NCBI GenBank assembly: GCA_965369655.1
Contig: CBDUQR010000036.1
Location: 1 to 28,101, forward strand
Length of the DNA stretch: 28,101 bases
Direction: 5' to 3'
Source of the DNA: an uncultured bacterium
GTDB taxonomy: Bacteria > Zixibacteria > MSB-5A5 > JAABVY01 > JAHJOQ01
Shown here: positions 7,814 to 27,464 of the stretch, piece by piece
Layout: each line of letters opens with the position of its first letter
How positions within the stretch are numbered: the first letter of the stretch is position 1
Made by a program: the position numbers and the translations under genes
Notes under the pieces: model-generated
Seen by the model: the letters and a program-made list of their open reading frames with translations, nothing else
Database searches by the model: none
Told to the model about the DNA's origin: nothing

Positions 7814-7859
7814 CTGAAACTCCGATCATTGCCTGCAAAACGCGATTCTTGAACAGCGA

Positions 7860-7887
7860 ACAATACTGCCAGTTTCATCAATGTCAA
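7860..7887 (-). promoter_or_regulatory. Sigma70-type promoter for the acyl-CoA ligase
   Basis: TTGACA-N16-TATTGT on the minus strand, about 45 nt upstream of the GTG. Confidence 0.65.
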
Positions 7888-7957
7888 GCGAATTCGATCC
7901 GCCTGTATCGGTTCAGAACCGTGCGTGACAGAACAACATGAGGCTGCTCGAATCCTG

Positions 7958-13746: not shown

Positions 13747-14388
13747 CTAACTCACATAATCTGACAGCATGTTCACCCACTCCTGCAACGATGCTATCCG
13801 CTGAACAAACAGTGAAATACGAGCCATGACCGTATAGCCAAAACTGGCGCCGAATCCTATCATCAGGATATAGATACCAACCTTGGCAAAGCCTCCAAAT
13901 GCACCCTTGTGCTCTTTGGAGAAAAAGAAATAAATCAACGCTGCTAATACGCCCAGCACTATGATGATGTTCCAGAATTCAGTTCCGGAGCCGACGCCAA
14001 GCGTCAGGTCTAGAGTCGATGTCAGTTGTCTGTTCACGTTGTTATACATATACAGTGGTAAGGCAACGCCCGAGCCGATCCCGATATAGCATGCAATCGG
14101 GTAACGCGACACCCACGCTAATTTCTTTGAGAATCTGAACCACATTGACAGACCCAGCAAGCCTGGAATGATATATGCGTAGTTGCCGTCGAATATCCTG
14201 TTGAAGAGTGTCGGGATCAGGCTGGTGTGAATCAGCAGGACAAAGAAATACCCAGCCGACACGCCAACCACCAGATGCTCTGCAAACTTATAAAACGGAT
14301 TGTCCTTATACAGAAACGAGAAGGTCGCAAGCGTAAGGATCGCACCGAGCGTTGTCCAGAGCAATTCAATAAATGGAGTATCCTGCAT
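13747..14388 (-). CDS. Module 3 subunit D: 6-TM 'LYKDNP' membrane protein
   Basis: SFLYKDNPFYKFAEH, YFFFSKEHKG and FGASFGYTVMAR are shared with D1/D2; GGAGG RBS. Confidence 0.88.
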   Translation of the reverse strand: MQDTPFIELLWTTLGAILTLATFSFLYKDNPFYKFAEHLVVGVSAGYFFVLLIHTSLIPTLFNRIFDGNYAYIIPGLLGLSMWFRFSKKLAWVSRYPIACYIGIGSGVALPLYMYNNVNRQLTSTLDLTLGVGSGTEFWNIIIVLGVLAALIYFFFSKEHKGAFGGFAKVGIYILMIGFGASFGYTVMARISLFVQRIASLQEWVNMLSDYVS

Positions 14389-14401
14389 CTGTCACAACCT
14401 C

Positions 14402-15253
14402 CTACAAGTCCGTTTGCGTTTTTCTGCGGCTCAGGTAGTAGCCGATGTTTCCGATCAATATGAACAGGATGATAGTCAGATGCGCCGCCACCTGTGCCGG
14501 CATACCGGCTGTAGCATCGTGCTCCTCACCCACCAGCTTTTCATATTCCGCAGCGCCTTTCCATCCTCCTATAAGACCGAATATGGCGTTGCCGAGATAC
14601 GGGTAGAAGTCAGAAGCCATAACGCCCGTGACACCGAGCGCCAGAGGCATGTCGTATTTGGCGTTGCCATAGACTATCCACCAGTCACCTGTTGTGCCTG
14701 ATGTGAGCACGAGTACGCATTTGACATCGTCGTAGTTTCTGACTCGATCCATTATTGGTAATGAGTCCAACGGATTGTTGTAATAATCCTCCGGGAAGTA
14801 GATCCTGAAATTCTGCCCCATGCCGAGAATAACGAGCGCCGGATATGGTCGATAGCCGAGGAAGCAATAATCCTCGCCATATTTCTTCTCGATGCCATAC
14901 AGTTCCCTCGATTCCTCCACACCATTCCTGAGAAGCTCTTCAACCATAGTCGAACCATACTGCGACAGCGTCACTCCCAGGACCTTGACATCGGTTCTGA
15001 AAGCATGCAGCAGGATTGCGCGCGCCATCGGGTGCAACTCTGCGAGCGAATTCGGATCGTAGTCGAAACTGATGAGGATCTTATCTCCCGGATCGAGATC
15101 CTCAATAAACTGATAGATCGACTCGACCTCGCTGGTGACCGTTACCGGGACACTGAAATCATTCCTGAAGAGATAAGCGAATGTCACCACGACAGCCAGG
15201 AAAAGGTAGACCCAGCGGCGATCGAGCATCGTCATTTTCTCGAATACATTCAT
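14402..15253 (-). CDS. Module 3 subunit C: membrane-anchored 'FDYDP' protein
   Basis: Start moved to ATG 15253 (GGAGG RBS); DRRW + TM, SFDYDP, GGWKGAAEYE, Q-x-x-AH + TM; paralogous to C1/C2. Confidence 0.88.
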   Translation of the reverse strand: MNVFEKMTMLDRRWVYLFLAVVVTFAYLFRNDFSVPVTVTSEVESIYQFIEDLDPGDKILISFDYDPNSLAELHPMARAILLHAFRTDVKVLGVTLSQYGSTMVEELLRNGVEESRELYGIEKKYGEDYCFLGYRPYPALVILGMGQNFRIYFPEDYYNNPLDSLPIMDRVRNYDDVKCVLVLTSGTTGDWWIVYGNAKYDMPLALGVTGVMASDFYPYLGNAIFGLIGGWKGAAEYEKLVGEEHDATAGMPAQVAAHLTIILFILIGNIGYYLSRRKTQTDL

Positions 15254-15263
15254 TGTCGCCTCC

Positions 15264-15887
15264 TCAGTCTTTCCCGAGGTACGAGCGCTCAATGCCGAGC
15301 AGTACCTTCAGTGATGTTGCAACTATGCCAAGCCCGATGCCGATAATGATAGCGCGCTTTGCAGCGAGATTCGGAACTTTCAGTACCCAACTCGCAAGGT
15401 CGGATATCGGCTCAGACAGCGGTCCCATCGGCATGAACCTTACCATGATAATAAAAGCAGCCAGGAGCAGCACTGATGCGAGAAGCGATCGCGCCCTGAA
15501 CGCTCTGAATGCCGCCGAAGCGATAAAGAACGCCAGCAAAGCAAACATCGTCGCCTGAATCGGCACCATTATGTATGAAAAGAAATGTATGTACCAGTAG
15601 TTTGTCAGAAATCCGCCATCCGGAAAAAACCCGACTATCATCATGAAGAACAGGCCTGCAATAGTAATTACAGCGTATTGCCAGTTCTCGGATTTTCGCT
15701 TGATCTTATCGACATTGACACGAAGGAGCGACCATAGTCCGAGTATAAGCGCGAATATCCCGATAATGATAGTCCAGTCGAGCGCATACTCGTAGATCAT
15801 ATCCGAAGTGTCGTTCGGAACGAAATACTGGAATACCATGAAAAGTCCCAAAATAAATACTAACTTCAGAGGAAGCCATTGTTTCAT
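15264..15887 (-). CDS. Module 3 subunit B: 6-TM membrane protein
   Basis: MFALLAFFIASAAFRAFRAR, PNLAAKRAIIIGI, LGIERSYLG; GGAGG RBS. Confidence 0.88.
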   Translation of the reverse strand: MKQWLPLKLVFILGLFMVFQYFVPNDTSDMIYEYALDWTIIIGIFALILGLWSLLRVNVDKIKRKSENWQYAVITIAGLFFMMIVGFFPDGGFLTNYWYIHFFSYIMVPIQATMFALLAFFIASAAFRAFRARSLLASVLLLAAFIIMVRFMPMGPLSEPISDLASWVLKVPNLAAKRAIIIGIGLGIVATSLKVLLGIERSYLGKD

Positions 15888-15901
15888 CTGTACATCCTCC
15901 T

Positions 15902-17131
15902 TTACAGCTTAACCCTGAGCATTTCGATCAATACATCCCAGCCCAGAACCGAAGTGATGGCTCCGATCACAAGCAGAACCATGACTATCGCCTTCGCCCA
16001 GTCCTCAGCCTTCAGAGAACCGAGCAAGACCGGCTCTTTGCCGAGATAGGCGGATGCAGCGTACAATTCCTCACCGATCAGAGTGTAATCGCATGCAACC
16101 ACAAAGAATGGAATCTGCGCGACCTGATCGGTCCCGGAAATCTGGATGGCGCCTGTGGACGCTCCAGTCTCCGCGAGAATCAGAGATTCGGCATGGAAGA
16201 CGCCGAGATAGAAATTCGTCGCAGGCTGTTCCCGCACCATGATGCCGTTGACACCGGCGACGTACGCGAACTGCGAATTGGTAATGAAAAAGACCATGTC
16301 TTCGTCATAGTGGTCGGGCTTGCCCGCTTCCATATAGGCGGCCTTAACCACCTCCTGCGCGACCGTCATCACGATAGCCTCGTAACATGGCACAATAAGT
16401 TTGGTCTGATACTCAGCGACCTTCTTCGCTACCCTGCTGAGAATGGTAAACGAAGCTATCGTCGCAATATCGGATGCGGCGCCGAGCCCAAGCACATAAA
16501 GAATCGGCTTGCCCATCTCGGTCGCTCTTCCGATCGCCTCGTCGACCGCCTGAATACCAGCGATCGGGCGAACGTAAAGATCCTTGCCCCTCTTCGCCGC
16601 CACAATGAAATAGATAGTGAAGGCAGTGAAAAGCAGAACCGCTACAAGGACCGGAATCTTGCCGAGATGGAGCCACTGGGCTTTAGCCCGATACGGACCC
16701 GCAATATCAGACATCGTAGTGAGTCCTTCTGTCCCAACGGCGACTACTTTGTAGAAGAAGTCTGTATTGTTCGGGAAGTAATCAAGCTCGTCCTCATCTC
16801 GATTACCGCGATCCGAATACTCGAAGACATCGTTCGGCAGTTTACCACGAAGCACGTACTCACCATCGGGATATTCGGCACGGTAGACCTCAAAACCTGA
16901 AATCGCGCTGACGTCGCCATCCGGCACCTCGAATTTCAATCCAAGCGCATGGCCGTTGTCGTTCGGCAGGTCTTTCCCGGACAGGACTACCGGTTTCGGT
17001 GGTGGATCAACCAGCACCTCCTCGAGCAGCGTGTCGGCAGCGATTTCTTCAATCTGAGCGAAGACAGGCGAAGAAAGCGCGAAGAGCACAGCAACCGCCA
17101 GATACATTATCAGTTTCAGCCTGTGTTTCAT
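15902..17131 (-). CDS. Module 3 subunit A: signal peptide + FN3-like domain + DUF6754-like domain
   Basis: IAGIQAVDEAIGRATEMG, AESLILAETG, PFFVVACDYTLIGEELYAASAYL; N-terminal DLPNDNG...GFEVYR...YKVVA beta-sandwich. ATG 17131 preferred over GTG 17137. Confidence 0.88.
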   Translation of the reverse strand: MKHRLKLIMYLAVAVLFALSSPVFAQIEEIAADTLLEEVLVDPPPKPVVLSGKDLPNDNGHALGLKFEVPDGDVSAISGFEVYRAEYPDGEYVLRGKLPNDVFEYSDRGNRDEDELDYFPNNTDFFYKVVAVGTEGLTTMSDIAGPYRAKAQWLHLGKIPVLVAVLLFTAFTIYFIVAAKRGKDLYVRPIAGIQAVDEAIGRATEMGKPILYVLGLGAASDIATIASFTILSRVAKKVAEYQTKLIVPCYEAIVMTVAQEVVKAAYMEAGKPDHYDEDMVFFITNSQFAYVAGVNGIMVREQPATNFYLGVFHAESLILAETGASTGAIQISGTDQVAQIPFFVVACDYTLIGEELYAASAYLGKEPVLLGSLKAEDWAKAIVMVLLVIGAITSVLGWDVLIEMLRVKL

Positions 17132-17161
17132 AGACACCTTCTTTATGAGAAGTACTATTTA

Positions 17162-17905
17162 TTATCTAATCATTCCGAGCCAGTCGCCGAACAGGAACTG
17201 CATCCTTCCGACCAGCAGCGATATCCTCGCCATCACCGTGTATCCAAACGAAGCTCCGAACGTGATCATGAGTACAGTTATCCCGGTTCGCGCACCTGCG
17301 CCGAAGGCACCTTTGTGCTCTTTCGAGAAGAAGAAATAGATCAGGCCACAGATGACGCCACCAAAAACGATCACATTGGAAAGTGTCGCGCCCAGGTCGA
17401 AACCGGATGCATTGTTTACATATAACGAAAACACAGTGTTGTTGATTTGCTGAATGAAATCGGAACGCAGGTATCTGACCAGGTTCAGTCCCGCCGTCGT
17501 TCCGACGATAAACGCAAGCGCCCATCTCGAAATCCATCCTGCTTTAGAAGAGAGCCGCATCAATAAGAGAATCCCGAGCACGAGCGGTATCACCATGTGA
17601 AGCTGGACAGGATCATCTTTCAGAGCCGGAAGGACAGGTCCGACCACAGGAGGATAAAGTTTGCCGAACAGATTCGGCACCATAGTCCCCCAGAATCCCA
17701 TGCACATCCAGTACGCGGCGCTCACTCCCACGAACAGATGCTCTGCGAACTTGTAGTACGGATTGTCCTTGTAGAGAAACGAGAAGATGAACAGCGTGAG
17801 AAACGCGCCAATTGTGACAAGAAAACCCTTGAGTGCGACGCTTATTACGAACGCGATCACAATTACCGCAAGGACTATGTAGCTCGCCATTTTCCTGGCG
17901 TTCAT
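17162..17905 (-). CDS. Module 2 subunit D: 'LYKDNP' membrane protein with an extra N-terminal TM
   Basis: SFLYKDNPYYKFAEH, YFFFSKEHKG, FGASFGYTVMAR; the start overlaps the C2 stop (TAATG). Confidence 0.88.
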   Translation of the reverse strand: MNARKMASYIVLAVIVIAFVISVALKGFLVTIGAFLTLFIFSFLYKDNPYYKFAEHLFVGVSAAYWMCMGFWGTMVPNLFGKLYPPVVGPVLPALKDDPVQLHMVIPLVLGILLLMRLSSKAGWISRWALAFIVGTTAGLNLVRYLRSDFIQQINNTVFSLYVNNASGFDLGATLSNVIVFGGVICGLIYFFFSKEHKGAFGAGARTGITVLMITFGASFGYTVMARISLLVGRMQFLFGDWLGMIR

Positions 17906-18801
17906 TATTCTGCTCCTGTCGCCCGCGCCCTGTCGCGACTTCTCTGAATGAAGTAAAGCACGTTCCCAAACAGTATGAAGAACATTATCACAACGTGAGC
18001 AACCGCCTGCGACATCATCAGGCTCATGCCGGCCATCTTGCGGTCTTTGTATTTCGGATATGCCTGAATTAACGCATTCTCATACTCGGCTGCGCCTTTG
18101 GCTCCTCCAAGAATACCGATGAGCTGATTCGGATAGTATGGATAGAGAAGCGGCGCCGAGACAGCGGTACATCCACCGCCGATAGGAATCTTACCCGGAT
18201 CACCGGCATAGAGAACCCACTCTTTGATTCCGGGGAATCCGCCACCGAACGATATTATCAGATCGAAATTCTTCAGATTCCTGATATTCTTCATCATCGG
18301 GAAATCATCGATAGCCGTGTTATTCGCGTCAGTCGAATACATCATCTTGAAGTCAACCAGGATAACCCGTATTAACCCCTGGTTACCGGCTTTATAGCCG
18401 AGATTGATATAGTCTATTCCGTATTCATACTCCGGGAATTCCGGCTTCAGGATCTTCTCGATAGTCTCCCAGGTGAGATTGTGCCCTGTCGCCCAGACAG
18501 CCATCATGTACATCTTGCACTTCCGCTCACCGCATTGCCGCACGATAGCGTCGACCATAGGCTGAATCTCGGGCGCGGTCGTGGGACCGTAATCGAACGA
18601 CAACAATACTCTGGAGCCTTCCGGCAACTCATCCACAGTGTCGAAGAATGCCTGCACGATCGGCGTTGTCTCCTCTTTGAGCGTTGCCCCGAACAGCAGA
18701 GGTATGACAACCGCGAGCCCGATGAACACGAAGATGATCCGACGGTCTATCGATTGCAACCGTTCGACAAGTGATTTCTGTTCAGTGTGACCGTTGCTCA
18801 T
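17905..18801 (-). CDS. Module 2 subunit C: membrane-anchored 'FDYxP' protein
   Basis: DRRII + TM, SFDYGP, YGIDYINLGY, GGAKGAAEYE, SQAVAH + TM. Confidence 0.88.
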   Translation of the reverse strand: MSNGHTEQKSLVERLQSIDRRIIFVFIGLAVVIPLLFGATLKEETTPIVQAFFDTVDELPEGSRVLLSFDYGPTTAPEIQPMVDAIVRQCGERKCKMYMMAVWATGHNLTWETIEKILKPEFPEYEYGIDYINLGYKAGNQGLIRVILVDFKMMYSTDANNTAIDDFPMMKNIRNLKNFDLIISFGGGFPGIKEWVLYAGDPGKIPIGGGCTAVSAPLLYPYYPNQLIGILGGAKGAAEYENALIQAYPKYKDRKMAGMSLMMSQAVAHVVIMFFILFGNVLYFIQRSRDRARATGAE

Positions 18802-18811
18802 ATTGTAATCC

Positions 18812-19495
18812 TCAGTCGTTGTCCTGACCGAGATATGTCCTTTCGATTCCGAGAATAATCCTCAGCGACATCGAGATCACTCCGAGAGCTATGCCGATCA
18901 TGATAGCGCGCTGACCGGCGAGATTCGGCACATCCATGATCCAGTTGGCAAGGTTCGGAATTTGCAGGAATTCCCAGCCTCCCGTTAAGCCGCCAGTCAG
19001 CCAGAGTCCGAACGGTGTTCGCCCGAGCAGGATCACAAATGCCGCGATAAGCAGGATAGTGGCCTCAACTGTTTTCGCCCTGAACGCCCTGTATGACGCC
19101 GATCCGACATAGAAAGCCAGCAGAGCAAACATCGACGCCTGCAACGGAGTGAAGATATACATGTACAGATCATTGAAAAGCGAGCCAATCGCTGCGACGT
19201 CGCCCTGGATACCGCCGGGATTGCTGATCTTGAACAGCCCGGCCGCGAGGACCAAACCGAAACTCGCGAGAGTCACAGCCGAGAATGGCCAGTCAGCCTT
19301 TTTCTTGTTGATCTTGGTGATATGCACTCTTAGGAGATTGCCGCCGCCGAGAATGAAAGCAAATACGGCGATGATATCGAAATACATCGAGAAATTGTCG
19401 CCAAGGCTGCCGAACGGCTTATGCGGTACAAACTCGGCGACAATCAGCACAGTGCCGACAATCAGTGTTATTACAAGCGGTACAGTTCTACGCAT
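18812..19495 (-). CDS. Module 2 subunit B: 6-TM membrane protein
   Basis: MFALLAFYVGSASYRAFRAK, PNLAGQRAIMIGI, LGIERTYLG. Confidence 0.88.
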   Translation of the reverse strand: MRRTVPLVITLIVGTVLIVAEFVPHKPFGSLGDNFSMYFDIIAVFAFILGGGNLLRVHITKINKKKADWPFSAVTLASFGLVLAAGLFKISNPGGIQGDVAAIGSLFNDLYMYIFTPLQASMFALLAFYVGSASYRAFRAKTVEATILLIAAFVILLGRTPFGLWLTGGLTGGWEFLQIPNLANWIMDVPNLAGQRAIMIGIALGVISMSLRIILGIERTYLGQDND

Positions 19496-19498
19496 AGT

Positions 19499-20749
19499 TT
19501 AGCTCGCTGAGAACCATCCCTTAATCGTGTTTGCCAGCGACAGTACGGATTCGGATTCCGTGATCGCGGCAACGGTAAACAGTACACAGAGCAACACAAT
19601 TGCGCTCATCGCGATGATCTTGCCGACATCCTGACCCTTCAGCGATCCAAGCTGCTTCGGCTCCCCGGACAGGTATGCCGACGCTGCGAAAAGCTCTTCG
19701 CCGATCAGGGTATAGTCGCATGCTGCCACGAAGAACGGCAACTGCGCAGGCATGGCGGTACCTGCGATCTGAATCGCGCCGATCGAGTGACCCGTTTCAG
19801 CGAAGATCAGAGATTCGGCAAAGAACGCACCGATGTAGAAACAGGTCGCCGGTTTTTCGCGAACCATGATGCCGTCGACCGCGGCTACGTATCCAAACTG
19901 CTCGTCGGTCACGTAGTGCACCATGTCGTCCGAATATGCATCGGGGCGACCGGCAGCTATATACGCTTGTCTGATAGTCTCGCGCGCCGTAGTCAGTACG
20001 ATTGAACGAGAAACCGGCATATTGATCTTGGTGTCGTACTCGGCAATTGTCCTGGCGACACGCCCAAGAATGGTTATCCCCGCAATGGTCTGAACGTCGT
20101 CCACATCGAGAATACCGGGAATGAACAGAATCGGACGGCCCATCTCGGTCGCGCGTCCGATGGCCTCGTCGACAGCCTCGAGTCCGGCAATCTTCCGCAG
20201 GTAGAGCTTCTTCCCCTTCTGCGCACTGAAGATGAAAAATAAGACCGAAAAACAGATGATAAAGCCGATTACGAACGTATCGAGGTCTTTCGTATTGAAC
20301 CACTGTGCCGATGACACAACTCCACCGGAAATATCGGATTTCGAGCCGCCCGCATCTGATGTCGTCAGGACGTAGTAATAGTACGTCACGCCGTCGGTGG
20401 TGGTAGCGTCCTCATACTCTGTCATCCCGCGGGAGGCTGTCCCGACCATTTCAAATTCATCGTCATCGGAAGCCATTCGGTAGATATTGTAGCCGGTGAC
20501 ATTGTCGTCGCCAGCGCCGTCATCAAGCGACAATGCCCATCCGATCGTGACCGATCCGCCAGCATCGCCTTCGGAGTCGCGTACCAGCGTAAGATGCGCC
20601 GGTCTCGGAAGATCTATCTGCTCCATGATCATGCCGGTCGTATCCTGCATGACAGTATCGGGCTCGACCTGCGCGGCAAGCCATGAGAACGGGACCGCCA
20701 GAAGCAGCACCAGTCCAAACGCAGCAACTCGACTGAAGCGATTTTTCAT
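19499..20749 (-). CDS. Module 2 subunit A: signal peptide + FN3-like domain + DUF6754-like domain
   Basis: Start placed at ATG 20749, just past the D1 stop; IAGLEAVDEAIGRATEMG, PFFVAACDYTLIGEE; FN3-like W...YNIYR...YYYYV pattern. Confidence 0.88.
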   Translation of the reverse strand: MKNRFSRVAAFGLVLLLAVPFSWLAAQVEPDTVMQDTTGMIMEQIDLPRPAHLTLVRDSEGDAGGSVTIGWALSLDDGAGDDNVTGYNIYRMASDDDEFEMVGTASRGMTEYEDATTTDGVTYYYYVLTTSDAGGSKSDISGGVVSSAQWFNTKDLDTFVIGFIICFSVLFFIFSAQKGKKLYLRKIAGLEAVDEAIGRATEMGRPILFIPGILDVDDVQTIAGITILGRVARTIAEYDTKINMPVSRSIVLTTARETIRQAYIAAGRPDAYSDDMVHYVTDEQFGYVAAVDGIMVREKPATCFYIGAFFAESLIFAETGHSIGAIQIAGTAMPAQLPFFVAACDYTLIGEELFAASAYLSGEPKQLGSLKGQDVGKIIAMSAIVLLCVLFTVAAITESESVLSLANTIKGWFSAS

Positions 20750-20753
20750 ATCT

Positions 20754-21443
20754 CTAACCAAATGTCCCGATTATCCAGTCATTGACGAGAAAATCGATTC
20801 TTCCAATCAGGAGCGACATTCGGCTCATGACGGTATACCCGAATGATGCACCGAAAGTTATCATCAGGAACCATGTCCCGACTTTCGCGGCGCCACCGAA
20901 GAAGCCCTTGTGTTCCTTGGAGAAGAAGAAATATATCAGACCGGTAAACGTCCCGATTAGAATAATGGCATTGCCCACCCCTTCACCCCACCCCTGAACA
21001 GGTGGAATGCCACCGGCGTCCGATATAGGGCCGAACAATGGTACTATCGTATTGTAAACTTGTTTGACGCCATTGGAGACAAGATAATTGATAAACTGGA
21101 GACCGGCAGTTGCGCCAACTACCAACGCCAGCGGCCATCTCGAGATCCATCCTATTTGAGGAATGAGCCGCAGGAGCATCATGATGCCGAGTACGGCAGC
21201 GATGACATATAGCAACTCGTAAGTGATCTCGAACCGGGTGAAAAGCGCAACGAGCGCTGGCCAGAGATTCGCCCAGAGTTTGGAATATAGATTCTGCCAG
21301 AAGAGCGAAGCAATCCAGTAACCTGCCGAGATTCCGATAAAAATCGCCTCGCAGATCTTGTACCAGGGATTGTCCTTGTAGAGAAATGAAACTATCCCCA
21401 GTGTCAGAAACGCTCCGATCCAAATCCCGACATCGAAATTCAT
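20754..21443 (-). CDS. Module 1 subunit D: 6-TM 'LYKDNP' membrane protein
   Basis: SFLYKDNPWYK, YFFFSKEHKG, FGASFGYTVMSR. Confidence 0.88.
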   Translation of the reverse strand: MNFDVGIWIGAFLTLGIVSFLYKDNPWYKICEAIFIGISAGYWIASLFWQNLYSKLWANLWPALVALFTRFEITYELLYVIAAVLGIMMLLRLIPQIGWISRWPLALVVGATAGLQFINYLVSNGVKQVYNTIVPLFGPISDAGGIPPVQGWGEGVGNAIILIGTFTGLIYFFFSKEHKGFFGGAAKVGTWFLMITFGASFGYTVMSRMSLLIGRIDFLVNDWIIGTFG

Positions 21444-21450
21444 CTTATCG

Positions 21451-22290
21451 TCACTCCTTGCCTTTGCGCGTCACAGCGTAAGCGATGTTGCCTACTAGTA
21501 CAAAGAATATGACGATTGCATGCGCAAAAGTCTGTGAGAGCATATATTTCGTCGCTTTGTCCTTGAAACCCGTGAGCTTCTCGAACTCTGCGCCGCCTCT
21601 CATTCCGCCGAGCAGACCGATCAACTGCCCCGCATTGAGGTAGGGATACACCAGCGGCGCCTGAACGGCGGTATTGCCGGCCACAAGCCTCACGCCAAAT
21701 CTGTCGGCGGCGACCTGCACCCACTCAACGGTACCGGGATAGCCTGCCGAGAAATTGAAGACGAAATCTACATTCGAGAAGTTCTTCACATTCTTCAGAA
21801 GCTCGACGTCGTGATACGGATTTCCGCGAACATCCTTTGGAAAAGCCTCTGAGAAATCAGTACCCATTCTCTGGATCACGAACTCATTACCGGCCTGGAA
21901 GCCGAGATTCACGTAGTTTATCCCATACTGGAGATTCTTCGCGGCGATCTCCGGGACTTCAAGAGCCTTCTGGATCGAAATCTCAGCCTGAAGCGGTCCC
22001 TGTGGCCACAATCCTATGAATATTAGTTTCAGATCTTTCTGGAAAGCATACTTGACAGCAGCATCGGCCATTGGCTGCAATTCAGGCGCTGATGGTGGAT
22101 CGTAGTCGAATGCCATCAGGACTTTCGAGCCGGGTGGAAGTTCATCAAACGCATCGAATAATACTTGAACTTCATCCGAAATGGAGAGCTTAAAACTCAC
22201 GGTAAGGAACATGGGTATCAGAAGAGACAAGCCGACGAAAAGGAAAATCCATCTTCTGTCAACGGCGAGCATTTTTTCCCAGAATCCCAC
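21451..22290 (-). CDS. Module 1 subunit C: membrane-anchored 'FDYDP' protein
   Basis: DRRW + TM, AFDYDP, YGINYVNLGF, GGMRGGAEFE, SQTFAH + TM; the GTG start overlaps the B1 stop (TAGTG). Confidence 0.88.
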   Translation of the reverse strand: MGFWEKMLAVDRRWIFLFVGLSLLIPMFLTVSFKLSISDEVQVLFDAFDELPPGSKVLMAFDYDPPSAPELQPMADAAVKYAFQKDLKLIFIGLWPQGPLQAEISIQKALEVPEIAAKNLQYGINYVNLGFQAGNEFVIQRMGTDFSEAFPKDVRGNPYHDVELLKNVKNFSNVDFVFNFSAGYPGTVEWVQVAADRFGVRLVAGNTAVQAPLVYPYLNAGQLIGLLGGMRGGAEFEKLTGFKDKATKYMLSQTFAHAIVIFFVLVGNIAYAVTRKGKE

Positions 22291-22943
22291 TATTCGCTCC
22301 CTCCGAGATACGATCTCTCGATACCGAGCATAATTCGCAGGGCGGTCGATACCGTTCCGAGCGCGATTCCTATCATGATCGCGCGCTGACCGGCAAGGTT
22401 CGGGTAGTTCATGATAAACGACGCAATATCAGACAGTGGCGTGAAATCCTGCACGAACGGACCGAAGAGAATGTCGTCGAAGAGCACCCGTCCCATCATC
22501 ACGAGAAAGCCGGCCACCAGCAGGAGAGTCGCCTGCAGATTCCTCGCACGGAACGCTCTGTATGATGCCGACGCGACAAAAAAAGCGAGGAGGGCAAACA
22601 TCGTGGCTGATAACGGAGTGTAGATGAAGTTATAGAGCCAGGTGAACTCTGTGTCGGGAGTCTGGAATTCGGGACCTCCCGCAAATCCCGCGATTGCCAT
22701 CGTGAGCCATGAGACCACAATGATCAAAGCATACGGCCAGTCTTTCTTCTTCCTCTGTATCTTGATGATCGACAGCTTCAGAAGGTTGAGCGCACCGAGC
22801 CAGATCGCACACGCGGCGATTATGAAAAACCAGTCCGAGAACAACTGCTCAAACTTGTCGAATGGCGAGTGCGGAATGAAATACTGAATGACGAAGGCCA
22901 TGCCTACGACCCCAGTAATCACCAATGGTATTTCACGTTTCAT
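22290..22943 (-). CDS. Module 1 subunit B: 6-TM membrane protein
   Basis: MFALLAFFVASASYRAFRAR, PNLAGQRAIMIGI, LGIERSYLG. Confidence 0.88.
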   Translation of the reverse strand: MKREIPLVITGVVGMAFVIQYFIPHSPFDKFEQLFSDWFFIIAACAIWLGALNLLKLSIIKIQRKKKDWPYALIIVVSWLTMAIAGFAGGPEFQTPDTEFTWLYNFIYTPLSATMFALLAFFVASASYRAFRARNLQATLLLVAGFLVMMGRVLFDDILFGPFVQDFTPLSDIASFIMNYPNLAGQRAIMIGIALGTVSTALRIMLGIERSYLGGSE

Positions 22944-22946
22944 TAT

Positions 22947-24194
22947 CTAGTCCACCGGAACGCTGAATAAACTGGCGAAATCATATACGCCAAGTGTCTG
23001 GATGATCACACCGATCAGTATCACAAGCAGAATCAGACCTTTGCCCAGATCCTGTCCCTTTAGAGAGCCGAGGAGTTTCGGTTCCTTCGACAAGTAGGCT
23101 GAAGCCGCATAGAGTTCTTCGCCAATCAGCGTGTAGTCACATGCCGCGACGAAAAACGGAAGCTGCGCAGGCATCGCCGTACCTGCTATCTGAATCGCAC
23201 CTATTGAGTTTCCGGTCTCGGCGAGAATGAGCGATTCAGCGTAGAACGCACCCATATAGAATATCGTAGCAGGTTTCTCCCTGACCACCATCCCATCGAT
23301 GGCAGCGGCATATCCGAACTGATCGTCAGTCAGGTAGTGAACAATGTCTTCATGGAATGCGTCGGGGCGACCGGCGTTGACATACGCCTCCTTGACGATC
23401 TCACGCGCGATGACCATAACCAGCGATCGTGACACGGGAACATCGAGCCTGGTCTCATACTCGGCGGCGAGTTTCGCTACTCTGCCGAGGATTGTCACGC
23501 CTGCAATTGTCTGAATGTTCTCGATATCCTGCGTGCCAGGAACATAGAATATCTTCTTACCCATCTCCGTTGCACGACCGACAGCCTCATCGACAGCTTC
23601 GAGACCCGCAATCTTGCGTATGAACAGCTCTTTGCCGGCTTTCGCCTGATTGATGTAGTAGAGGATCAGGAAACTAATAACGAGGGCAAAGACCAGTACA
23701 ACAGTGCGGCTCGTATTGAACCACTGAGCCGATGAACTTACTGCGCGAGTATAGCCTGAGAAGGCAGTTACAGGGATCAATTCACTTGAAGCTGTTGCAA
23801 GTTCATTGACGGCAGCAATCCTGTAGACATAGCTGACGCCACTAACTGCATAGTTGTCTCTGGCGGATGTTCCACCCGCCGGTGCAGAGCCGATTACTTC
23901 GAATTCACTGTCGGAAGCATCAGATCGCTTACGTTCGACATCATATCGAACAACCATCCCTTTGGCGTCATCCGGCGAGAGTTCCCAGCCGACATGAATA
24001 GAACCACCATTATCGTTTGGCGTATCTTTGGCGGTTATATTGACCGGTGGGGCTGGCCTAACGGCATCTTCTGGAACAGCAGAGACGGCAACTGCGGCAC
24101 TGTCAGCCAGGTCCTCGTCTACAACAGTCGCACACAATATCAGCGGCGACAAAACAACTGCGATGCAAATAGCGAGCAATGTTCTAAGTAGCAT
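22947..24194 (-). CDS. Module 1 subunit A: signal peptide + FN3-like domain + DUF6754-like domain
   Basis: ATG 24194 preferred (the TTG at 24206 lies in a U-tract); PAPPVNITAKDTPNDNGGSIHVGW...YVYRIAAVN FN3-like domain, TM, IAGLEAVDEAVGRATEMG, PFFVAACDYTLIGEELYAASAYL. Confidence 0.88.
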   Translation of the reverse strand: MLLRTLLAICIAVVLSPLILCATVVDEDLADSAAVAVSAVPEDAVRPAPPVNITAKDTPNDNGGSIHVGWELSPDDAKGMVVRYDVERKRSDASDSEFEVIGSAPAGGTSARDNYAVSGVSYVYRIAAVNELATASSELIPVTAFSGYTRAVSSSAQWFNTSRTVVLVFALVISFLILYYINQAKAGKELFIRKIAGLEAVDEAVGRATEMGKKIFYVPGTQDIENIQTIAGVTILGRVAKLAAEYETRLDVPVSRSLVMVIAREIVKEAYVNAGRPDAFHEDIVHYLTDDQFGYAAAIDGMVVREKPATIFYMGAFYAESLILAETGNSIGAIQIAGTAMPAQLPFFVAACDYTLIGEELYAASAYLSKEPKLLGSLKGQDLGKGLILLVILIGVIIQTLGVYDFASLFSVPVD

Positions 24195-24204
24195 GGAACC
24201 TGCC

Positions 24205-24236
24205 AAAAAACGAGACCGCCGGATAAGCGACGGCCT
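24205..24236 (-). terminator. Intrinsic terminator-like hairpin immediately upstream of the module 1 start codon (possible attenuator)
   Basis: Minus strand AGGCCGTCG-CTTATC-CGGCGGTCT (9 bp, two G-U pairs) followed by CGTTTTTT. Confidence 0.7.
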
Positions 24237-24377: not shown

Positions 24378-25505
24378 CTACCCCTCTATCAACTCCACGT
24401 TCGCCCGCGGAATAACTGCTTTCGAACCGTCACCGAATTCGACTTCGAGGATTCGAGCGTATGATTCCGAATCGAGTTTCTTCAGTTCAGGCGGAAGATC
24501 TGATACCTTGCCCAGCCTTCCGAAATATGGCTGCCGAATAACTCTGACCGGAGATCCTACACCGAGCCCCATCGAGTTCTGCGACTTCAACGACTCACCG
24601 GATTGATCCGACTTGCCGAGAGGTATGACAACCTCGGGGCGGATAACGCCGGCTCTGATCTGTGTCGCGCCGTTTATACACGCCATCTCGCCTTCTTTTG
24701 ATTTCAAGAGATCGAACGTCCTCTGCGCAATGTCGATCTGACCGAATCCCTCCGTTATGACAACTGTGACGCCCATGTCTTCATTGCCGGTGATTGCGAC
24801 GCCGATGTCGGTCCCGAGAATCTCCCGAAGATCCTTGTCGTCTATGCCTCCGACCACAATTCCCTTCGCCTTCACCTCGATTGCCCTGGTGATCGCGGCT
24901 GATGTCACAAGCGATCCGCCAACAATAACCTTGCCCTCGCACGATGAATCTATCAAGCTGTCGGTGAGAATATCAGAGTTGCTTTCTGTGACAATCTTTA
25001 TTTCGCCGTGAGTTTCTCCACCTATTCCGAAAATCCCCTGCACGAAACTGCCTTCGGTCTCGACGACCACGCCCTCCTCCGGGATCACCTCGGTGACCGT
25101 GCCGTCGAGATACGCTTTTACTTCCACTGGAATGGGATGACCGCGAAGTAAAACCTGTCCGGTGACATTCGAAATGTTCTCGATTGTGCCGTCGATCTTC
25201 GATTTCGCCTCGGACTTGAACAGGCCGAAGAAGCTCTTGGTCATGGCAATCGGTTCGTCCTTCGCGATTGGATCGCCTTCTTTCTTGAGCATGCACTCAT
25301 CGACATCTTCGGGAGGAACGCCGAGGATATTCGCGATATTTATCGGTTCGACATTGCCCGGCAAGTCAGTTCGAGCGACGACCACATCCGGTTCGACCTT
25401 ATCACCGGTCTTGACTACCACCTCACCCTTGAGTGGAAGAATGCGTCTTTTGGAAACAGTCATCCTCTCGGTGACTTTCAAACCGGGCGTATATGCGTGA
25501 GCCAT
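24378..25505 (-). CDS. Uncharacterised soluble protein: barrel-sandwich-hybrid repeats, central alpha/beta domain, C-terminal KOW-like domain
   Basis: GEVVVKTGDKV, KKEGDPIAKDEPIA, KSKIDGTIENI, VKAYLDGTVTEV; AITRAIEVKAKGIVVGG; GVGSPVRVIRQPYFGRLGKV; AGGAG RBS. Confidence 0.85.
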   Translation of the reverse strand: MAHAYTPGLKVTERMTVSKRRILPLKGEVVVKTGDKVEPDVVVARTDLPGNVEPINIANILGVPPEDVDECMLKKEGDPIAKDEPIAMTKSFFGLFKSEAKSKIDGTIENISNVTGQVLLRGHPIPVEVKAYLDGTVTEVIPEEGVVVETEGSFVQGIFGIGGETHGEIKIVTESNSDILTDSLIDSSCEGKVIVGGSLVTSAAITRAIEVKAKGIVVGGIDDKDLREILGTDIGVAITGNEDMGVTVVITEGFGQIDIAQRTFDLLKSKEGEMACINGATQIRAGVIRPEVVIPLGKSDQSGESLKSQNSMGLGVGSPVRVIRQPYFGRLGKVSDLPPELKKLDSESYARILEVEFGDGSKAVIPRANVELIEG

Positions 25506-25607: not shown

Positions 25608-27464
25608 TTAATCCCTGTCCAGCGCCTCCGCATGGTATACATCAAGCTCGGTGATCCACTCTTTCAATTTCTGTATCCTGAGACTGTCTTCGTCTGGAGG
25701 CGTAAACGGCCTGCCGCGTCCATCGAGAATTATCCCGACGACACCGCCGGAAACAGTTGTCTCGAGTTTATGCCCTTTGCCCGCGCCGACATCCTGGTGG
25801 CGATCCGGTTCGAGAACGGCCTTTGCTTTGAGCGGTATACCGGTCTCTTCATCGAACCCGAGCTTGATCAGCTTCATCGTGCCGGACATCAACTCGCCCT
25901 CAGCCGTCTTACCGCCGGGCAGTTCAAATTTGTATTTCATCAGAGCCTTATTGCCCTTGAAACTTCCGCACGGCGCCACGCATGTGCCCAGATGTATCAG
26001 GCAATCCTTTTCGAATACTTCGGTCGCGGCGTTTTTGTGGACGACCGACAGCACGCCGAGTTGAGGCATCATGAATATCGAGTCGACCGCGAGCCTCGTG
26101 ATACCCTCCGGCTGGAACGCGTCGATCGCCATCAGCGCCGCCTGCTGACGGCGCGGAGCATGCGACAGAACGCCGCCGGAGCCGATCAGCATATTCAGCG
26201 ACATCATATTGACGAGTGTCTGTCCCGACGATACCTGCGCGAATGCATCAGCGATCGTCCTTTGCTGCTGTATACCCTTGAGCACCGTCGCGAATTCCTT
26301 GTGCTGTATGAATGCGAGCCGCAACGCTTCTCTGGCGACTGCCTGCTCGAATATCAACTCTTCCATCGTCTGCGGGATAGTGGTCGGGCGGATCATCTTG
26401 TTCTTGATCCTGTTGCGCAGGTCGCGCTCGTCCATGTGGAACGGCACCCAGCGCATGACATTCGGAAGCCCCGTCTCCTTGAATACGTTTGAGACCGAAT
26501 AACTCATCCCGAGATTCGCGGAGACCGTGCGGTTAAACACATCCTGAAATACGGAGAATACGTCAGTCGTCGCGCCGCCGATGTCGACGCCTAACGCCTC
26601 GATACCTTCGATATCCGAGATCGTTTTGATGATCGCACCTACGGCTCCCGGAGTCGGCATGATATCAGCATCGGTCCAACTCATCAGCTTGCTGTAGCCG
26701 GGAGCCTGCGCCATGACATGCTCCATGAACAGGTCATGGATTTTCTCGCGGGCGGGAAGCAGGTTCTCTCTTTCGAGCACCGGCCTGAGATTGTCAACTA
26801 TTCCAAGATCTACCTTGTCGCCAAGTGTTGCGGTGATATTCTCACGAGCTTCCTTGTTGCCTGCGTAAATCACCGGAAGCTTGTAACTGGAACCGAGTCT
26901 CGGTTTCGGGTCGGCTGCGCTGATAAGCTCTGCGATCTCCACAACATGCGTTATCGTGCCACCATCGATTCCGCCGGAGAGAAGAATCATGTCCGGGCGG
27001 AGGTGACGGATTCTCTGGATTTGTTCGTGTGGAAGTCTCTTGTCATTCGATGCGATTACATCCATCACGATCGCGCCCGCACCGAGAGCCGCGCGCTCAG
27101 CCGATTCGGCGGTCATCGATCGGACCACACCCGCGACCATCATCTGCAAACCACCGCCAGCCGATGATGTCGAGATATAGATGTCAGTTCCGACCTTGTT
27201 GCCGTTGTCATCAGATCGGGGCGAGATAATTTTGTCGTTCTCATCGAGGAGCTTGCGGCCGGAAAGTTCGACTACCTCCTGGACGGCGTTCAGCACGCCC
27301 ATAGTGACATCTTCGAACGGCGCCTCGACAGTTGTCGGCGCCTCGCCCCTGACGATCAGCCGATATTCACCATCGCGGTATTCTATCAGAATCGCCTTGG
27401 TGGTTGTGGAGCCGCAATCGGTCGCGAGGATAACCTTGATATCTTCAGGCTTCATGTCTCTCAT
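25608..27464 (-). CDS. GlmL/MutL-like (glutamate mutase L family) ASKHA ATPase, long form
   Basis: Phosphate-1 ATDCGSTTTKA, SSAGGGLQM, AALGAGA, LSGGIDGG, MPTPGAV, phosphate-2 VDIGGATTDVFS, adenosine-motif-like IGSGGVLSHAP. Confidence 0.88.
   Translation of the reverse strand: MRDMKPEDIKVILATDCGSTTTKAILIEYRDGEYRLIVRGEAPTTVEAPFEDVTMGVLNAVQEVVELSGRKLLDENDKIISPRSDDNGNKVGTDIYISTSSAGGGLQMMVAGVVRSMTAESAERAALGAGAIVMDVIASNDKRLPHEQIQRIRHLRPDMILLSGGIDGGTITHVVEIAELISAADPKPRLGSSYKLPVIYAGNKEARENITATLGDKVDLGIVDNLRPVLERENLLPAREKIHDLFMEHVMAQAPGYSKLMSWTDADIMPTPGAVGAIIKTISDIEGIEALGVDIGGATTDVFSVFQDVFNRTVSANLGMSYSVSNVFKETGLPNVMRWVPFHMDERDLRNRIKNKMIRPTTIPQTMEELIFEQAVAREALRLAFIQHKEFATVLKGIQQQRTIADAFAQVSSGQTLVNMMSLNMLIGSGGVLSHAPRRQQAALMAIDAFQPEGITRLAVDSIFMMPQLGVLSVVHKNAATEVFEKDCLIHLGTCVAPCGSFKGNKALMKYKFELPGGKTAEGELMSGTMKLIKLGFDEETGIPLKAKAVLEPDRHQDVGAGKGHKLETTVSGGVVGIILDGRGRPFTPPDEDSLRIQKLKEWITELDVYHAEALDRD

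What the first reader, a model, noticed from the sequence alone, without database searches (positions are those of the whole stretch)
20754..22943. Subunits B and D: antiparallel 6-TM pair, each built from three helical-hairpin repeats
Each reads as three (TM, short amphipathic helix, TM) units. D repeats a GxxxG unit (IGISAGY, VGATAGL, FGASFGY). The first loops resemble each other (B1 YFIPHSPFDKFEQLF, D3 FLYKDNPFYKFAEHL). Positive-inside bias is reversed: B has basic residues at the N-terminus and even loops (MKR, KIQRKKK, RAFRAR), while D has them in odd loops (YKDNPxYK, RFSKK, SKEHK). Inverted-topology paralogue pairs are an established hallmark of transport cores (SMR heterodimers, RnfA/E, NqrD/E). 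With A/C this suggests a pseudo-two-fold transporter.
Basis: inference. Interest (0 to 1): 0.72.

Follow-up and report, generated by a model that had tools for sequence, protein, structure and literature searches.

The report
Oppositely oriented six-helix subunits, DUF6754 module
Two small six-helix membrane proteins of a widespread, never-studied four-protein membrane unit sit in the membrane in opposite directions, but they show no sign of being mirror-image copies of one gene, so the unit looks like a new kind of membrane machine rather than a classic two-fold symmetric transporter.

Summary
B (22290-22943) and D (20754-21443) are six-helix membrane proteins inserted in opposite directions. 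B is N-in/C-in: 132 of 132 relatives obey positive-inside. D is N-out/C-out, supported by short conserved basic odd loops, signal-anchor extensions, C-D fusions with an extra helix, and extra seventh helices with basic tails. D carries three conserved GxxxG motifs, and its first two hairpins are weakly alike.

Profile comparison finds no B-D homology (probability 0.2-0.4%), no repeats in B, and no A-C homology. No B or D relative matches the Rnf/Nqr family, and no cysteine is conserved. Fold similarity could not be tested because my two models were poor.

B and D are subunits of the four-gene DUF6754 module (A-B-C-D). There are three tandem diverged copies here and a fourth elsewhere in this Zixibacteria genome. 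The order B-C-D is kept in 111 of 113 cassettes, and the module is present in 151 of 151 genomes of the phylum. It is linked to a GlmL-like actin-fold ATPase and a barrel-sandwich protein, which are fused in a second copy in this genome.

Conserved loops face the cytoplasm; variable loops and inserted domains face outward. Best reading: a modular, probably ATPase-coupled membrane machine of unknown cargo. This scan had already noted the module in 122 notes from at least 99 genomes.

The parts
25608..27464 (-). GlmL/MutL-like actin-fold (ASKHA) ATPase, 618 aa; probable cytoplasmic partner of the modules
   Evidence: PF13941 E 1.4e-126. It scores below the NCBIfam equivalog cut-offs for GlmL and Or-4. 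It lies next to the cassettes in 26 of 46 loci that have 4 kb upstream. It is fused to an X375-like part in a second copy in the genome.
24378..25505 (-). X375: very conserved 375-aa soluble protein with an N-terminal barrel-sandwich hybrid domain
   Evidence: The window protein has no Pfam match itself. Among 28 relatives, 22 match Biotin_lipoyl, 12 match RnfC_N and 8 match NQRA_N at E <= 1. Mean column identity is 75%. It is found elsewhere in 4 of 5 genomes whose cassette locus lacks it.
22947..24206 (-). A1: signal/anchor, Fn3-like outer domain, TM, cytoplasmic DUF6754 domain, TM
   Evidence: PF20539 E 3.2e-126. Weak Fn3/titin matches. The DUF6754 domain is cytoplasmic by flanking charges in 119 of 121 sequences, and the C-terminus is outside in 118 of 121.
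22290..22943 (-). B1: 6-TM subunit, N-in/C-in
   Evidence: Hydropathy. Positive-inside holds in 132 of 132. L4, 'SASYRAFRAR', is nearly invariant at 0.28 bits. No curated family match. Sub-threshold TMD0_ABC match only.
21451..22290 (-). C1: TM, about 220-aa outer alpha/beta-like domain, TM; both ends cytoplasmic
   Evidence: Flanking charges give N-in in 111 of 119 and C-in in 105 of 119. No family match.
20754..21443 (-). D1: 6-TM subunit, N-out/C-out, three TM hairpins each with a conserved GxxxG in its second helix
   Evidence: Hairpin 1 against hairpin 2 similarity.
19499..20761 (-). A2 (second cassette)
   Evidence: 55% identical to A1; DUF6754 match.
18812..19495 (-). B2
   Evidence: 48% identical to B1.
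17905..18801 (-). C2
   Evidence: 39% identical to C1.
17162..17905 (-). D2, with an extra N-terminal helix (TM0) after a basic N-terminus
   Evidence: 50% identical to D1. TM0 seen. The same extension type occurs in 32 of 102 D proteins of the loci, and all 32 have a basic start and a hydrophobic segment.
15902..17137 (-). A3 (third cassette)
   Evidence: 44% identical to A1; DUF6754 match.
15264..15887 (-). B3
   Evidence: 43% identical to B1.
14402..15292 (-). C3
   Evidence: 34% identical to C1.
13747..14388 (-).
   Evidence: 41% identical to D1; sequence.

Best explanation
B and D are two different six-helix subunits, unrelated by any sequence measure, of one four-subunit inner-membrane module (A-B-C-D, the DUF6754 module). 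They are inserted in opposite directions: B has both ends in the cytoplasm, D has both ends outside.

Shown: the helix counts, the two orientations, the fixed gene order, the tandem diverged copies, the much higher conservation of the cytoplasmic loops, and the tolerance of the outer side of D for inserted or added domains.

Inferred: together with the two helices each of A and C, B and D form a 16-helix membrane core. Its conserved cytoplasmic face comprises B loop 4 'SASYRAFRAR', D loops 'YKDNPxYK' and 'SKEHKG', and the cytoplasmic DUF6754 domain of A. This face docks a shared soluble engine: the GlmL-like actin-fold ATPase with the barrel-sandwich protein X375. The variable outer face comprises the Fn3 domain of A, the outer domain of C, and the outer loops and inserts of D. 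It gives each paralogous module its own cargo or ligand.

The most likely job is ATP-coupled movement of some cargo across or into the inner membrane. Several specificity modules would share one engine, in the way several S-components share one ECF energising module. The cargo is unknown.
For: Orientation of B: K+R bias in 132 of 132 sequences.

Orientation of D:
- The short odd loops are basic and the long even loops acidic.
- 32 of 32 N-terminally extended D proteins start with a basic end, a hydrophobic helix and a mostly acidic linker.
- Of the 150 best family representatives, 46 have 25 aa or more before TM1, and 43 of those 46 carry an odd number of hydrophobic segments there.
- 5 of 9 C-D fusions have an extra helix between the inward-ending last helix of C and TM1 of D.
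- 13 of 80 representatives have a long tail consisting of an extra seventh helix plus a basic end.

One complex: the order B-C-D is kept in 111 of 113 cassettes that have room downstream, the genes overlap or abut, and natural C-D fusions exist.

Conserved inner face, variable outer face: mean entropy is 1.25 bits inside against 2.03 outside for B, and 0.85 against 2.25 for D. 16 of 150 D representatives have inserts of more than 60 aa in outer loop 4.

Mirror topologies of A and C.

Link to the ATPase pair:
- It is adjacent in 26 of 46 loci.
- X375 is present elsewhere in 4 of 5 genomes that lack it nearby.
- GlmL-like and X375-like parts are fused in one 924-aa frame in this genome.

Several modules per engine: four full cassettes plus one orphan A, against two ATPase sets, in this genome.

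Spread: 151 of 151 genomes of the phylum and 0 of 14 control genomes. Loci come from Zixibacteria, WOR-3, Cloacimonadota, Latescibacterota, Acidobacteriota and others. D has 2744 clusters at 50% identity.
Against: There is no direct evidence that B touches D, or that the ATPase pair binds the module.

No subunit has a nucleotide-binding or known transport signature.

Adjacency to the ATPase pair is not universal: 20 of 46 loci with 4 kb upstream lack it, and 1 of 5 genomes checked had no X375 (that genome is a MAG of unknown completeness). A terminator-like hairpin lies between X375 and A1, so the two may be separate transcripts.

A plain K+R count puts D the other way round in most sequences: only 37 of 116 have more K+R on the odd loops, because of the two arginines in the tail helix. 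3 of 9 C-D fusions lack the extra helix, though they look like read-through or frameshift products because the D start methionine is retained.

The function is an inference from architecture alone.
Confidence: 0.45

Rival explanations
1. B and D are anciently diverged inverted-topology paralogues (and perhaps A and C as well). They form a pseudo-two-fold antiparallel heterodimer that is the alternating-access core of a self-contained transporter, as in SMR heterodimers, RnfA/E or NqrD/E.
For: B and D are of equal size and both have six helices. Their orientations are opposite. The four subunits fall into two mirror topology classes: A and D out/out, B and C in/in. Small-xxx-small motifs occur in helices 2, 4 and 6 of both proteins: in D, G37/G41, G110/G114 and G198/G202; in B, A46/G50, A120/A124 and G192/G196. 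D itself shows a weak internal hairpin duplication. X375 has an NqrA/RnfC-type N-terminal domain.
Against: No homology was found at any sensitivity available. B-D hhalign probability is 0.2-0.4%. All 15 hairpin-unit comparisons score at or below the shuffle range. B has no internal repeat. The A domain against the C domain scores 17.3, against a shuffle maximum of 24.4. No PF02508 match occurs in 105 B and 105 D relatives. The small-xxx-small motifs of B lie at different membrane depths and are common in membrane helices generally. The conserved link to a soluble ATPase pair argues against a self-contained secondary transporter.
Confidence: 0.12
2. The module is not a transporter. It is a membrane scaffold, sensor or envelope-assembly device. 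The variable outer domains bind envelope or external polymers, and the conserved inner face recruits the actin-fold protein for positioning or signalling. B and D would serve only as anchoring helices.
For: No transport or energy-coupling signature appears in any subunit. The outer domains vary (Fn3 in A, inserts and N-terminal domains in D). The partner has an actin fold, and many proteins of that fold act as scaffolds or chaperones rather than pumps (general knowledge of the ASKHA superfamily).
Against: Twelve strongly conserved helices in B and D, with invariant glycines, prolines and charged residues, are more than anchoring would need. Four to five diverged copies per genome across a whole phylum fits a set of specificities better than a single scaffold.
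Confidence: 0.25
3. The module is a non-redox offshoot of the Rnf/Nqr type of ion-translocating complex. B and D stand for the antiparallel RnfA/E (NqrD/E) pair, C for the outward RnfG/NqrC subunit, and X375 for RnfC/NqrA.
For: There is an antiparallel pair of six-helix subunits of about 200-230 aa. C has an N-terminal helix plus an outer domain. 12 of 28 X375 relatives match RnfC_N and 8 of 28 match NQRA_N.
Against: 0 of 105 B and 0 of 105 D relatives are listed with Rnf-Nqr (PF02508) among their matches. The invariant or nearly invariant lists hold no cysteine. No flavin- or iron-sulfur-binding family appears in C or X375. The barrel-sandwich domain is a common module also found in biotinyl, HlyD and M23 proteins. 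There is no counterpart of RnfD/NqrB.
Confidence: 0.06

Closest known systems
Pfam DUF6754 (PF20539) proteins and their four-gene cassette (catalogued, uncharacterised)
   Same: A1, A2 and A3 are full members (E 1e-119 to 1e-127). B, C and D follow A in the fixed order seen in 111 of 113 cassettes from many phyla.
   Different: No function is attached to the family, so it cannot be compared on function. No paper holding 'DUF6754' or 'PF20539' was found in the searched library.
RnfA/RnfE and NqrD/NqrE (Pfam Rnf-Nqr, PF02508): antiparallel six-helix pairs inside a multi-subunit complex
   Same: Both have two six-helix subunits of about 200-230 aa with opposite orientation in one operon. Both have a soluble partner with an RnfC/NqrA-type N-terminal barrel-sandwich domain.
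   Different: Those pairs are homologous to each other and, from my recall of the Na+-NQR structures, hold iron through conserved cysteines. B and D are not detectably homologous, do not match PF02508, and have no conserved cysteine.
Small antiparallel homologous dimers (SMR pairs such as EbrAB/YdgEF, Fluc/CrcB pairs)
   Same: Opposite K+R bias of two co-operonic membrane proteins of equal length.
   Different: Those proteins have four helices and are clearly homologous to each other (recalled). Here the subunits have six helices, show no homology, are separated by the gene for C, and are embedded in a four-subunit unit.
ECF transporters with a shared energising module (a functional analogy only)
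   Same: Several diverged membrane specificity units per genome are served by fewer soluble ATPase sets: four cassettes plus one orphan A against two ATPase sets here.
   Different: The ATPase here has an actin (ASKHA) fold, not an ABC fold. There is no sequence relation, and physical coupling has not been shown.
TMD0 domain of ABCC transporters (PF24357)
   Same: 47 of 105 B relatives give matches at E <= 1 (best 2e-6) over helices 2-5.
   Different: B1 scores 22.2 bits, below the 27-bit cut-off. TMD0 is a five-helix bundle (recalled). The match is probably compositional, and D has no such match.

Membership tests
Inverted-topology paralogue pair (antiparallel heterodimer derived from one gene) | Two co-operonic membrane proteins with the same length and number of helices | tested here: met
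   B is 217 aa and D 229 aa, with six helices each, in one operon separated by C.
Inverted-topology paralogue pair (antiparallel heterodimer derived from one gene) | Opposite membrane orientation (reversed positive-inside bias) | tested here: met
   B is N-in in 132 of 132. D is N-out/C-out by loop charges plus TM0 extensions (32 of 32 and 43 of 46), C-D fusions with an extra helix (5 of 9), and TM7 tails (13 of 80).
Inverted-topology paralogue pair (antiparallel heterodimer derived from one gene) | Detectable homology between the two partners | tested here: not met
   BLASTP E >= 0.09. hhalign probability 0.2-0.4%. All unit-by-unit comparisons fall within the shuffle range.
Inverted-topology paralogue pair (antiparallel heterodimer derived from one gene) | Same fold, related by a two-fold axis in the membrane plane | not testable with these tools
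   This needs confident models.
Rnf-Nqr membrane subunits (PF02508: RnfA/E, NqrD/E) | Sequence match to the family model | tested here: not met
   PF02508 is not among the families listed for 105 B or 105 D relatives at E <= 1. The tables show the first 25 families. B1 and D1 have no match.
Rnf-Nqr membrane subunits (PF02508: RnfA/E, NqrD/E) | Conserved intramembrane cysteines that bind iron (recalled from the Na+-NQR structures) | tested here: not met
   No cysteine appears among the invariant or nearly invariant columns of 105 B or 105 D sequences.
DUF6754 four-gene module | A subunit matches PF20539 over its whole length | tested here: met
   E 3.2e-126, profile positions 2-255 of 257. There are five matches in the genome.
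DUF6754 four-gene module | Fixed order A-B-C-D with B, C and D of the same families | tested here: met
   111 of 113 cassettes with 1800 nt or more after B have C and D in order. All three window cassettes have that order.
Internal three-fold hairpin repeat (within D, within B) | Repeat units recognisably similar to each other | tested here: inconclusive
   D hairpin 1 against hairpin 2 is above all 30 shuffles in two alignments, at probability 58% and 21.5%. D hairpin 3 shares only the GxxxG motif and is not above the shuffles. B gives 6% or less.

The most novel reading that the evidence does not exclude
The DUF6754 module is the membrane part of a new class of ATP-driven membrane machine. 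A soluble actin-fold ATPase with its barrel-sandwich partner powers several interchangeable 16-helix modules. Each module arose by an ancient inverted duplication of a two-gene unit, so that A+B (soluble domain inside) and C+D (soluble domain outside) are mirror images.
Probability: 0.1. Interest if true: 0.9.

Novelty: categorically new. Interest (0 to 1): 0.6.

Why it matters
All 151 sampled genomes of this phylum carry two to ten matches to the A subunit, mostly five. Relatives occur in many other, mostly uncultured, phyla. The D subunit alone forms 2744 clusters at 50% identity.

No subunit resembles a studied transporter, pump, secretion or respiratory component. I found no paper that names the family.

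An inner-membrane unit built around two oppositely inserted, unrelated six-helix proteins and coupled to an actin-fold ATPase would be a new design principle for membrane transport or envelope biology. It would also assign a role to thousands of 'hypothetical' genes.

For the narrower question, the result is a caution. Opposite topology alone does not show an inverted gene duplication.

Tried and rejected
1. Single-chain AlphaFold2 models of B and D, built from 22-sequence alignments, were poor (pLDDT 55.8 and 64.8). I used both folding jobs before building the deeper alignments, so no better single-chain model could be made. Foldseek against the PDB with these models gave nothing at E <= 0.001 and TM-scores of 0.30 or less. 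I regard those matches as meaningless and did not run the VIA searches on such models.

2. A B+D complex job with row-paired 105-sequence alignments returned 'no answer' (ipSAE 0.31, 0.30, 0.28; the mark is 0.32; controls not run). It counts neither for nor against binding.

3. Sequence searches of the PDB with the B, D, C and X375 profiles and with A1 and C1 found nothing useful. The only hits were Fn3/titin-like matches to the outer domain of A.

4. NCBIfam and PADLOC gave no match for A, B, C, D or X375.

5. The ESM Atlas gave only unnamed clusters for D and no named cluster for B. It held no structure models.

6. I considered a P-loop in A ('GRATEMGK') and rejected it. The spacing is wrong and the lysine is arginine in A2 (sequences).

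7. I considered reading D the other way round, because the plain K+R count favours it in 79 of 116 sequences. I rejected this because the excess comes from the two arginines of the amphipathic tail helix, and because all extension and fusion evidence points to N-out/C-out.

8. A literature search for 'GlmL' plus 'membrane' returned only unrelated papers that matched 'g/ml' (listing only).

9. A neighbourhood survey of the 79 loci found only one further recurrent gene: an unannotated ORF of about 256 aa with a signal peptide and a C-terminal anchor, lying between the GlmL-like gene and X375 in 18 loci. It has no family match.
Full report
WHAT IS AT THE COORDINATES

The interval 20754-22943 holds three minus-strand genes: B1 (22290-22943, 217 aa), C1 (21451-22290, 279 aa) and D1 (20754-21443, 229 aa). 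A1 (22947-24206, 419 aa) lies directly upstream.

The same four-gene set recurs twice more directly downstream: A2-D2 at 17162-20761 and A3-D3 at 13747-17137. The result is a twelve-gene train with overlapping or abutting genes. The copies are old paralogues, 28-55% identical.

Upstream on the same strand lie two further genes. One is a GlmL/MutL-like actin-fold ATPase (25608-27464; PF13941 E 1.4e-126). The other is a 375-aa protein with no family match of its own (24378-25505; I call it X375).

A is a full-length member of Pfam DUF6754 (E 3.2e-126). B, C and D match no Pfam, NCBIfam or PADLOC model above cut-off.

CHECK OF THE OBSERVATION

Helix count. Hydropathy gives six helices in B1-B3 and in D1 and D3. 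D2 has one extra N-terminal helix. The secondary structure of the two low-confidence models agrees.

Orientation of B. I used 132 B proteins: the three window copies plus those of 79 loci from other genomes. In all 132, the N-terminus, loops 2 and 4 and the C-tail together carry more K+R (mean 10.3) than loops 1, 3 and 5 (mean 3.3). B is therefore N-in/C-in.

Orientation of D. The plain count is ambiguous: only 37 of 116 sequences have more K+R on the odd loops. The reason is visible in the loop statistics.
- The odd loops are short (8-11 aa), basic (1.8-2.0 K+R) and almost free of acidic residues.
- The even loops are long (25-30 aa) and acidic.
- The 23-aa tail is an amphipathic helix with two invariant arginines.

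Four independent lines then fix D as N-out/C-out.
1. 32 of 102 D proteins in the loci (31 of them in the second cassette, like D2) have an N-terminal extension. In all 32 it consists of a basic start, a hydrophobic helix and a mostly acidic linker before TM1.
2. Of the 150 best representatives of the whole D family, 46 have 25 aa or more before TM1. In 43 of those 46 the extension contains an odd number of hydrophobic segments. In 41 it is a single segment at the very N-terminus, followed by up to about 220 aa of soluble sequence.
3. Nine natural C-D fusions were found. Five have an extra helix between the last helix of C (which ends in the cytoplasm) and TM1 of D. One merges the two helices in register. 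Three lack the extra helix but retain the D start methionine or a broken C part, and look like read-through or frameshift calls.
4. 13 of 80 representatives have tails of 50 aa or more that add a seventh helix followed by a basic end.

An independent consistency check supports both assignments. In both proteins the loops assigned to the cytoplasm are much more conserved than those assigned to the outside: 1.25 against 2.03 bits for B, and 0.85 against 2.25 bits for D. The conserved loops are even-numbered in B and odd-numbered in D.

GxxxG motifs. The three units of D are real and invariant: G37/S39, G110/G114 and G198/G202.

Hairpin repeats.
- D hairpin 1 (residues 3-52) and hairpin 2 (75-127) align in register. 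hhalign gives probability 58-67%, E 5e-5 to 1e-4 and score 23.0, against a maximum of 17.4 in 30 column shuffles.
- With a more diverse 227-sequence alignment the score is 18.1, against a shuffle maximum of 11.8, at probability 21.5%.
- D hairpin 3 is not above the shuffles.
- B shows no internal similarity (6% or less).

First-loop resemblance. This claim does not hold. The shared PFxKF is not conserved in the B family, and the profile comparison of the first hairpins gives 0.1-0.4%.

TEST OF THE INTERPRETATION

An inverted-topology paralogue pair needs homology, and none was detectable.
- BLASTP gave E 0.09 or worse.
- hhalign of B against D gave probability 0.3% with 22-sequence alignments, 0.4% with 105-132 sequences, and 0.2-0.4% with the enlarged D alignment at Neff 4.0.
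- I also compared every B two-helix unit with every D hairpin, in both possible registers (loops outside, loops inside). All 15 comparisons score 15.6 or less, which is within the range of shuffled controls.
The whole proteins give 1.4%. The soluble domains score 17.3, against a shuffle maximum of 24.4.
- Neither B nor D relatives match the Rnf-Nqr family, and neither family has a conserved cysteine.

- The four subunits fall into two mirror classes. A and D have both ends outside, and the DUF6754 domain of A is cytoplasmic (119 of 121). B and C have both ends inside, and the domain of C is outside (111 and 105 of 119).
- B also has small-xxx-small motifs in helices 2, 4 and 6. These lie at inconsistent depths, however, and such motifs are common in membrane helices.

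Whether the folds are alike could not be tested. Fold searches with them gave nothing.

WHAT IT IS

B and D are subunits of the DUF6754 four-gene module.
- In 79 loci from other genomes, B is followed by C and D in 111 of 113 cassettes that have room downstream. The two exceptions are a broken B and a masked stretch.
- 55 of the 79 loci hold two or three A genes in tandem.
- This genome has five DUF6754 genes: the three here, a fourth full cassette on another contig, and an orphan A without an Fn3 domain or B-C-D.
- 151 of 151 sampled genomes of the phylum have the family, mostly with five matches. 0 of 14 control genomes do.
- The loci carry labels of Zixibacteria, Ignavibacteria, WOR-3, Stahlbacteria, Cloacimonadota, Latescibacterota, Acidobacteriota and others.
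- The D family has 2744 clusters at 50% identity at E <= 0.001.

THE ATPASE LINK

- The GlmL-like gene and/or X375 lie next to the cassettes in 26 of 46 loci that have 4 kb upstream: 8 on the same strand and 18 divergent.
- In 4 of 5 genomes whose cassette locus lacks them, X375 is found elsewhere at E 1e-158 or better. The fifth is a MAG of unknown completeness.
- In this genome a second copy exists as a single 924-aa frame in which the GlmL-like part is followed by X375-like parts. This argues that the two work together.
- X375 is very conserved, at 75% mean column identity. Its relatives match barrel-sandwich hybrid models: Biotin_lipoyl in 22 of 28, RnfC_N in 12 of 28, NQRA_N in 8 of 28.
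- A terminator-like hairpin sits between X375 and A1, so they may be separate transcripts.

HOW IT MOST LIKELY WORKS

Shown: two unrelated six-helix subunits of opposite orientation, a conserved cytoplasmic face, and a variable outer face. The outer face accepts large inserts in D loop 4 (16 of 150 representatives) and added N-terminal domains. A carries an Fn3-like outer domain and C has its own outer domain.

Inferred: the 16 helices of A, B, C and D form one core. Its inner face, together with the DUF6754 domain, docks the shared GlmL-like/X375 engine. Each paralogous module handles its own cargo. I put this at about 0.45 overall. The architecture part is well supported; the transport and coupling parts are weak.

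PRIOR NOTES OF THIS SCAN

The module has been noted 122 times in at least 99 genomes. Two earlier follow-ups (e1-7031822, e1-4425979) also rejected a mirror-image or duplicated two-gene origin. My own profile tests agree. Others reported outward-facing swappable domains (e1-7290193), which my D-family survey supports, and an archaeal genome with eight copies (e1-5640853), which I did not check.

LITERATURE

Full-text searches for 'DUF6754', 'PF20539' and 'PF13941' found no paper. A search for 'GlmL' plus 'membrane' returned only irrelevant listings. Statements about the NqrD/E cysteines, SMR and Fluc pairs, TMD0 and ECF modules are from recall and come from no call.

VERDICT

The antiparallel pair is real and robust. 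The 'paralogue' and 'pseudo-two-fold transporter' parts are unsupported by sequence and untested by structure. The underlying module is a widespread, uncharacterised membrane system with no known relative.

Noticed in passing
L080:7301-10075 (own genome, contig C15): A second GlmL-like gene is fused in one 924-aa frame to X375-like segments. A similar 980-aa frame, with two TAA stops inside the match, occurs in a Cloacimonadota-labelled genome (L087).
   Followed up: partly
L081:8942-9808 (own genome, contig C1): An orphan DUF6754 protein of 288 aa has no Fn3 domain and no B, C or D genes beside it. It is followed by two nearly identical tandem genes for cysteine-rich secreted proteins (8222-8896 and 7508-8125). 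It is preceded by a PTS enzyme I-like gene and a sugar-isomerase-like gene; these two names are my reading of the sequences, not tested.
   Followed up: no
window 24213-24236 (minus strand): A terminator-like hairpin (9-bp stem, 6 G-C pairs, T-run) lies between X375 and A1 and reaches the listed TTG start of A1. The true A1 start is probably the ATG four codons downstream. The number of such sites in the region is no more than chance (12 found, 13 expected).
   Followed up: no
window 10063-12978 (minus strand): The pyruvate phosphate dikinase-like gene (named from reading the sequence, not tested) carries lysine/alanine-rich, histone-H1-like tails at both ends. The C-terminal tail is about 60 aa.
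   Followed up: no
P0257 (485 aa, from a 1.7-kb contig): One D-family protein is fused behind the N-terminal half of a POT/PTR2 peptide transporter (PF00854 E 4.5e-33). It may be a real fusion or an assembly chimera. An earlier scan note reported peptide-type ABC importer genes interleaved with the module.
   Followed up: no
L036:1530-2426 (minus strand) and 17 other loci: An unannotated ORF of about 256 aa lies between the GlmL-like gene and X375 in 18 loci where that pair is divergent from the cassettes. It has a signal peptide, a domain of about 200 aa, a C-terminal helix and a basic tail. It has no family match and is absent from the window.
   Followed up: partly
P0148, P0150-P0154 and L002:7531-8373: D proteins of about 281 aa in first cassettes carry a two-helix insertion in outer loop 4. 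Other D proteins carry soluble inserts of 200-350 aa there, one with an EF-hand calcium-binding loop (P0301; EF-hand_5 at 31.3 bits, above its cut-off).
   Followed up: partly
L048:8450-9887 and three other loci: An NfeD-like gene and an SPFH/Band-7 gene sit between two cassettes in four related loci. The window has its own SPFH-like gene at 4718-5545, which was not analysed.
   Followed up: no
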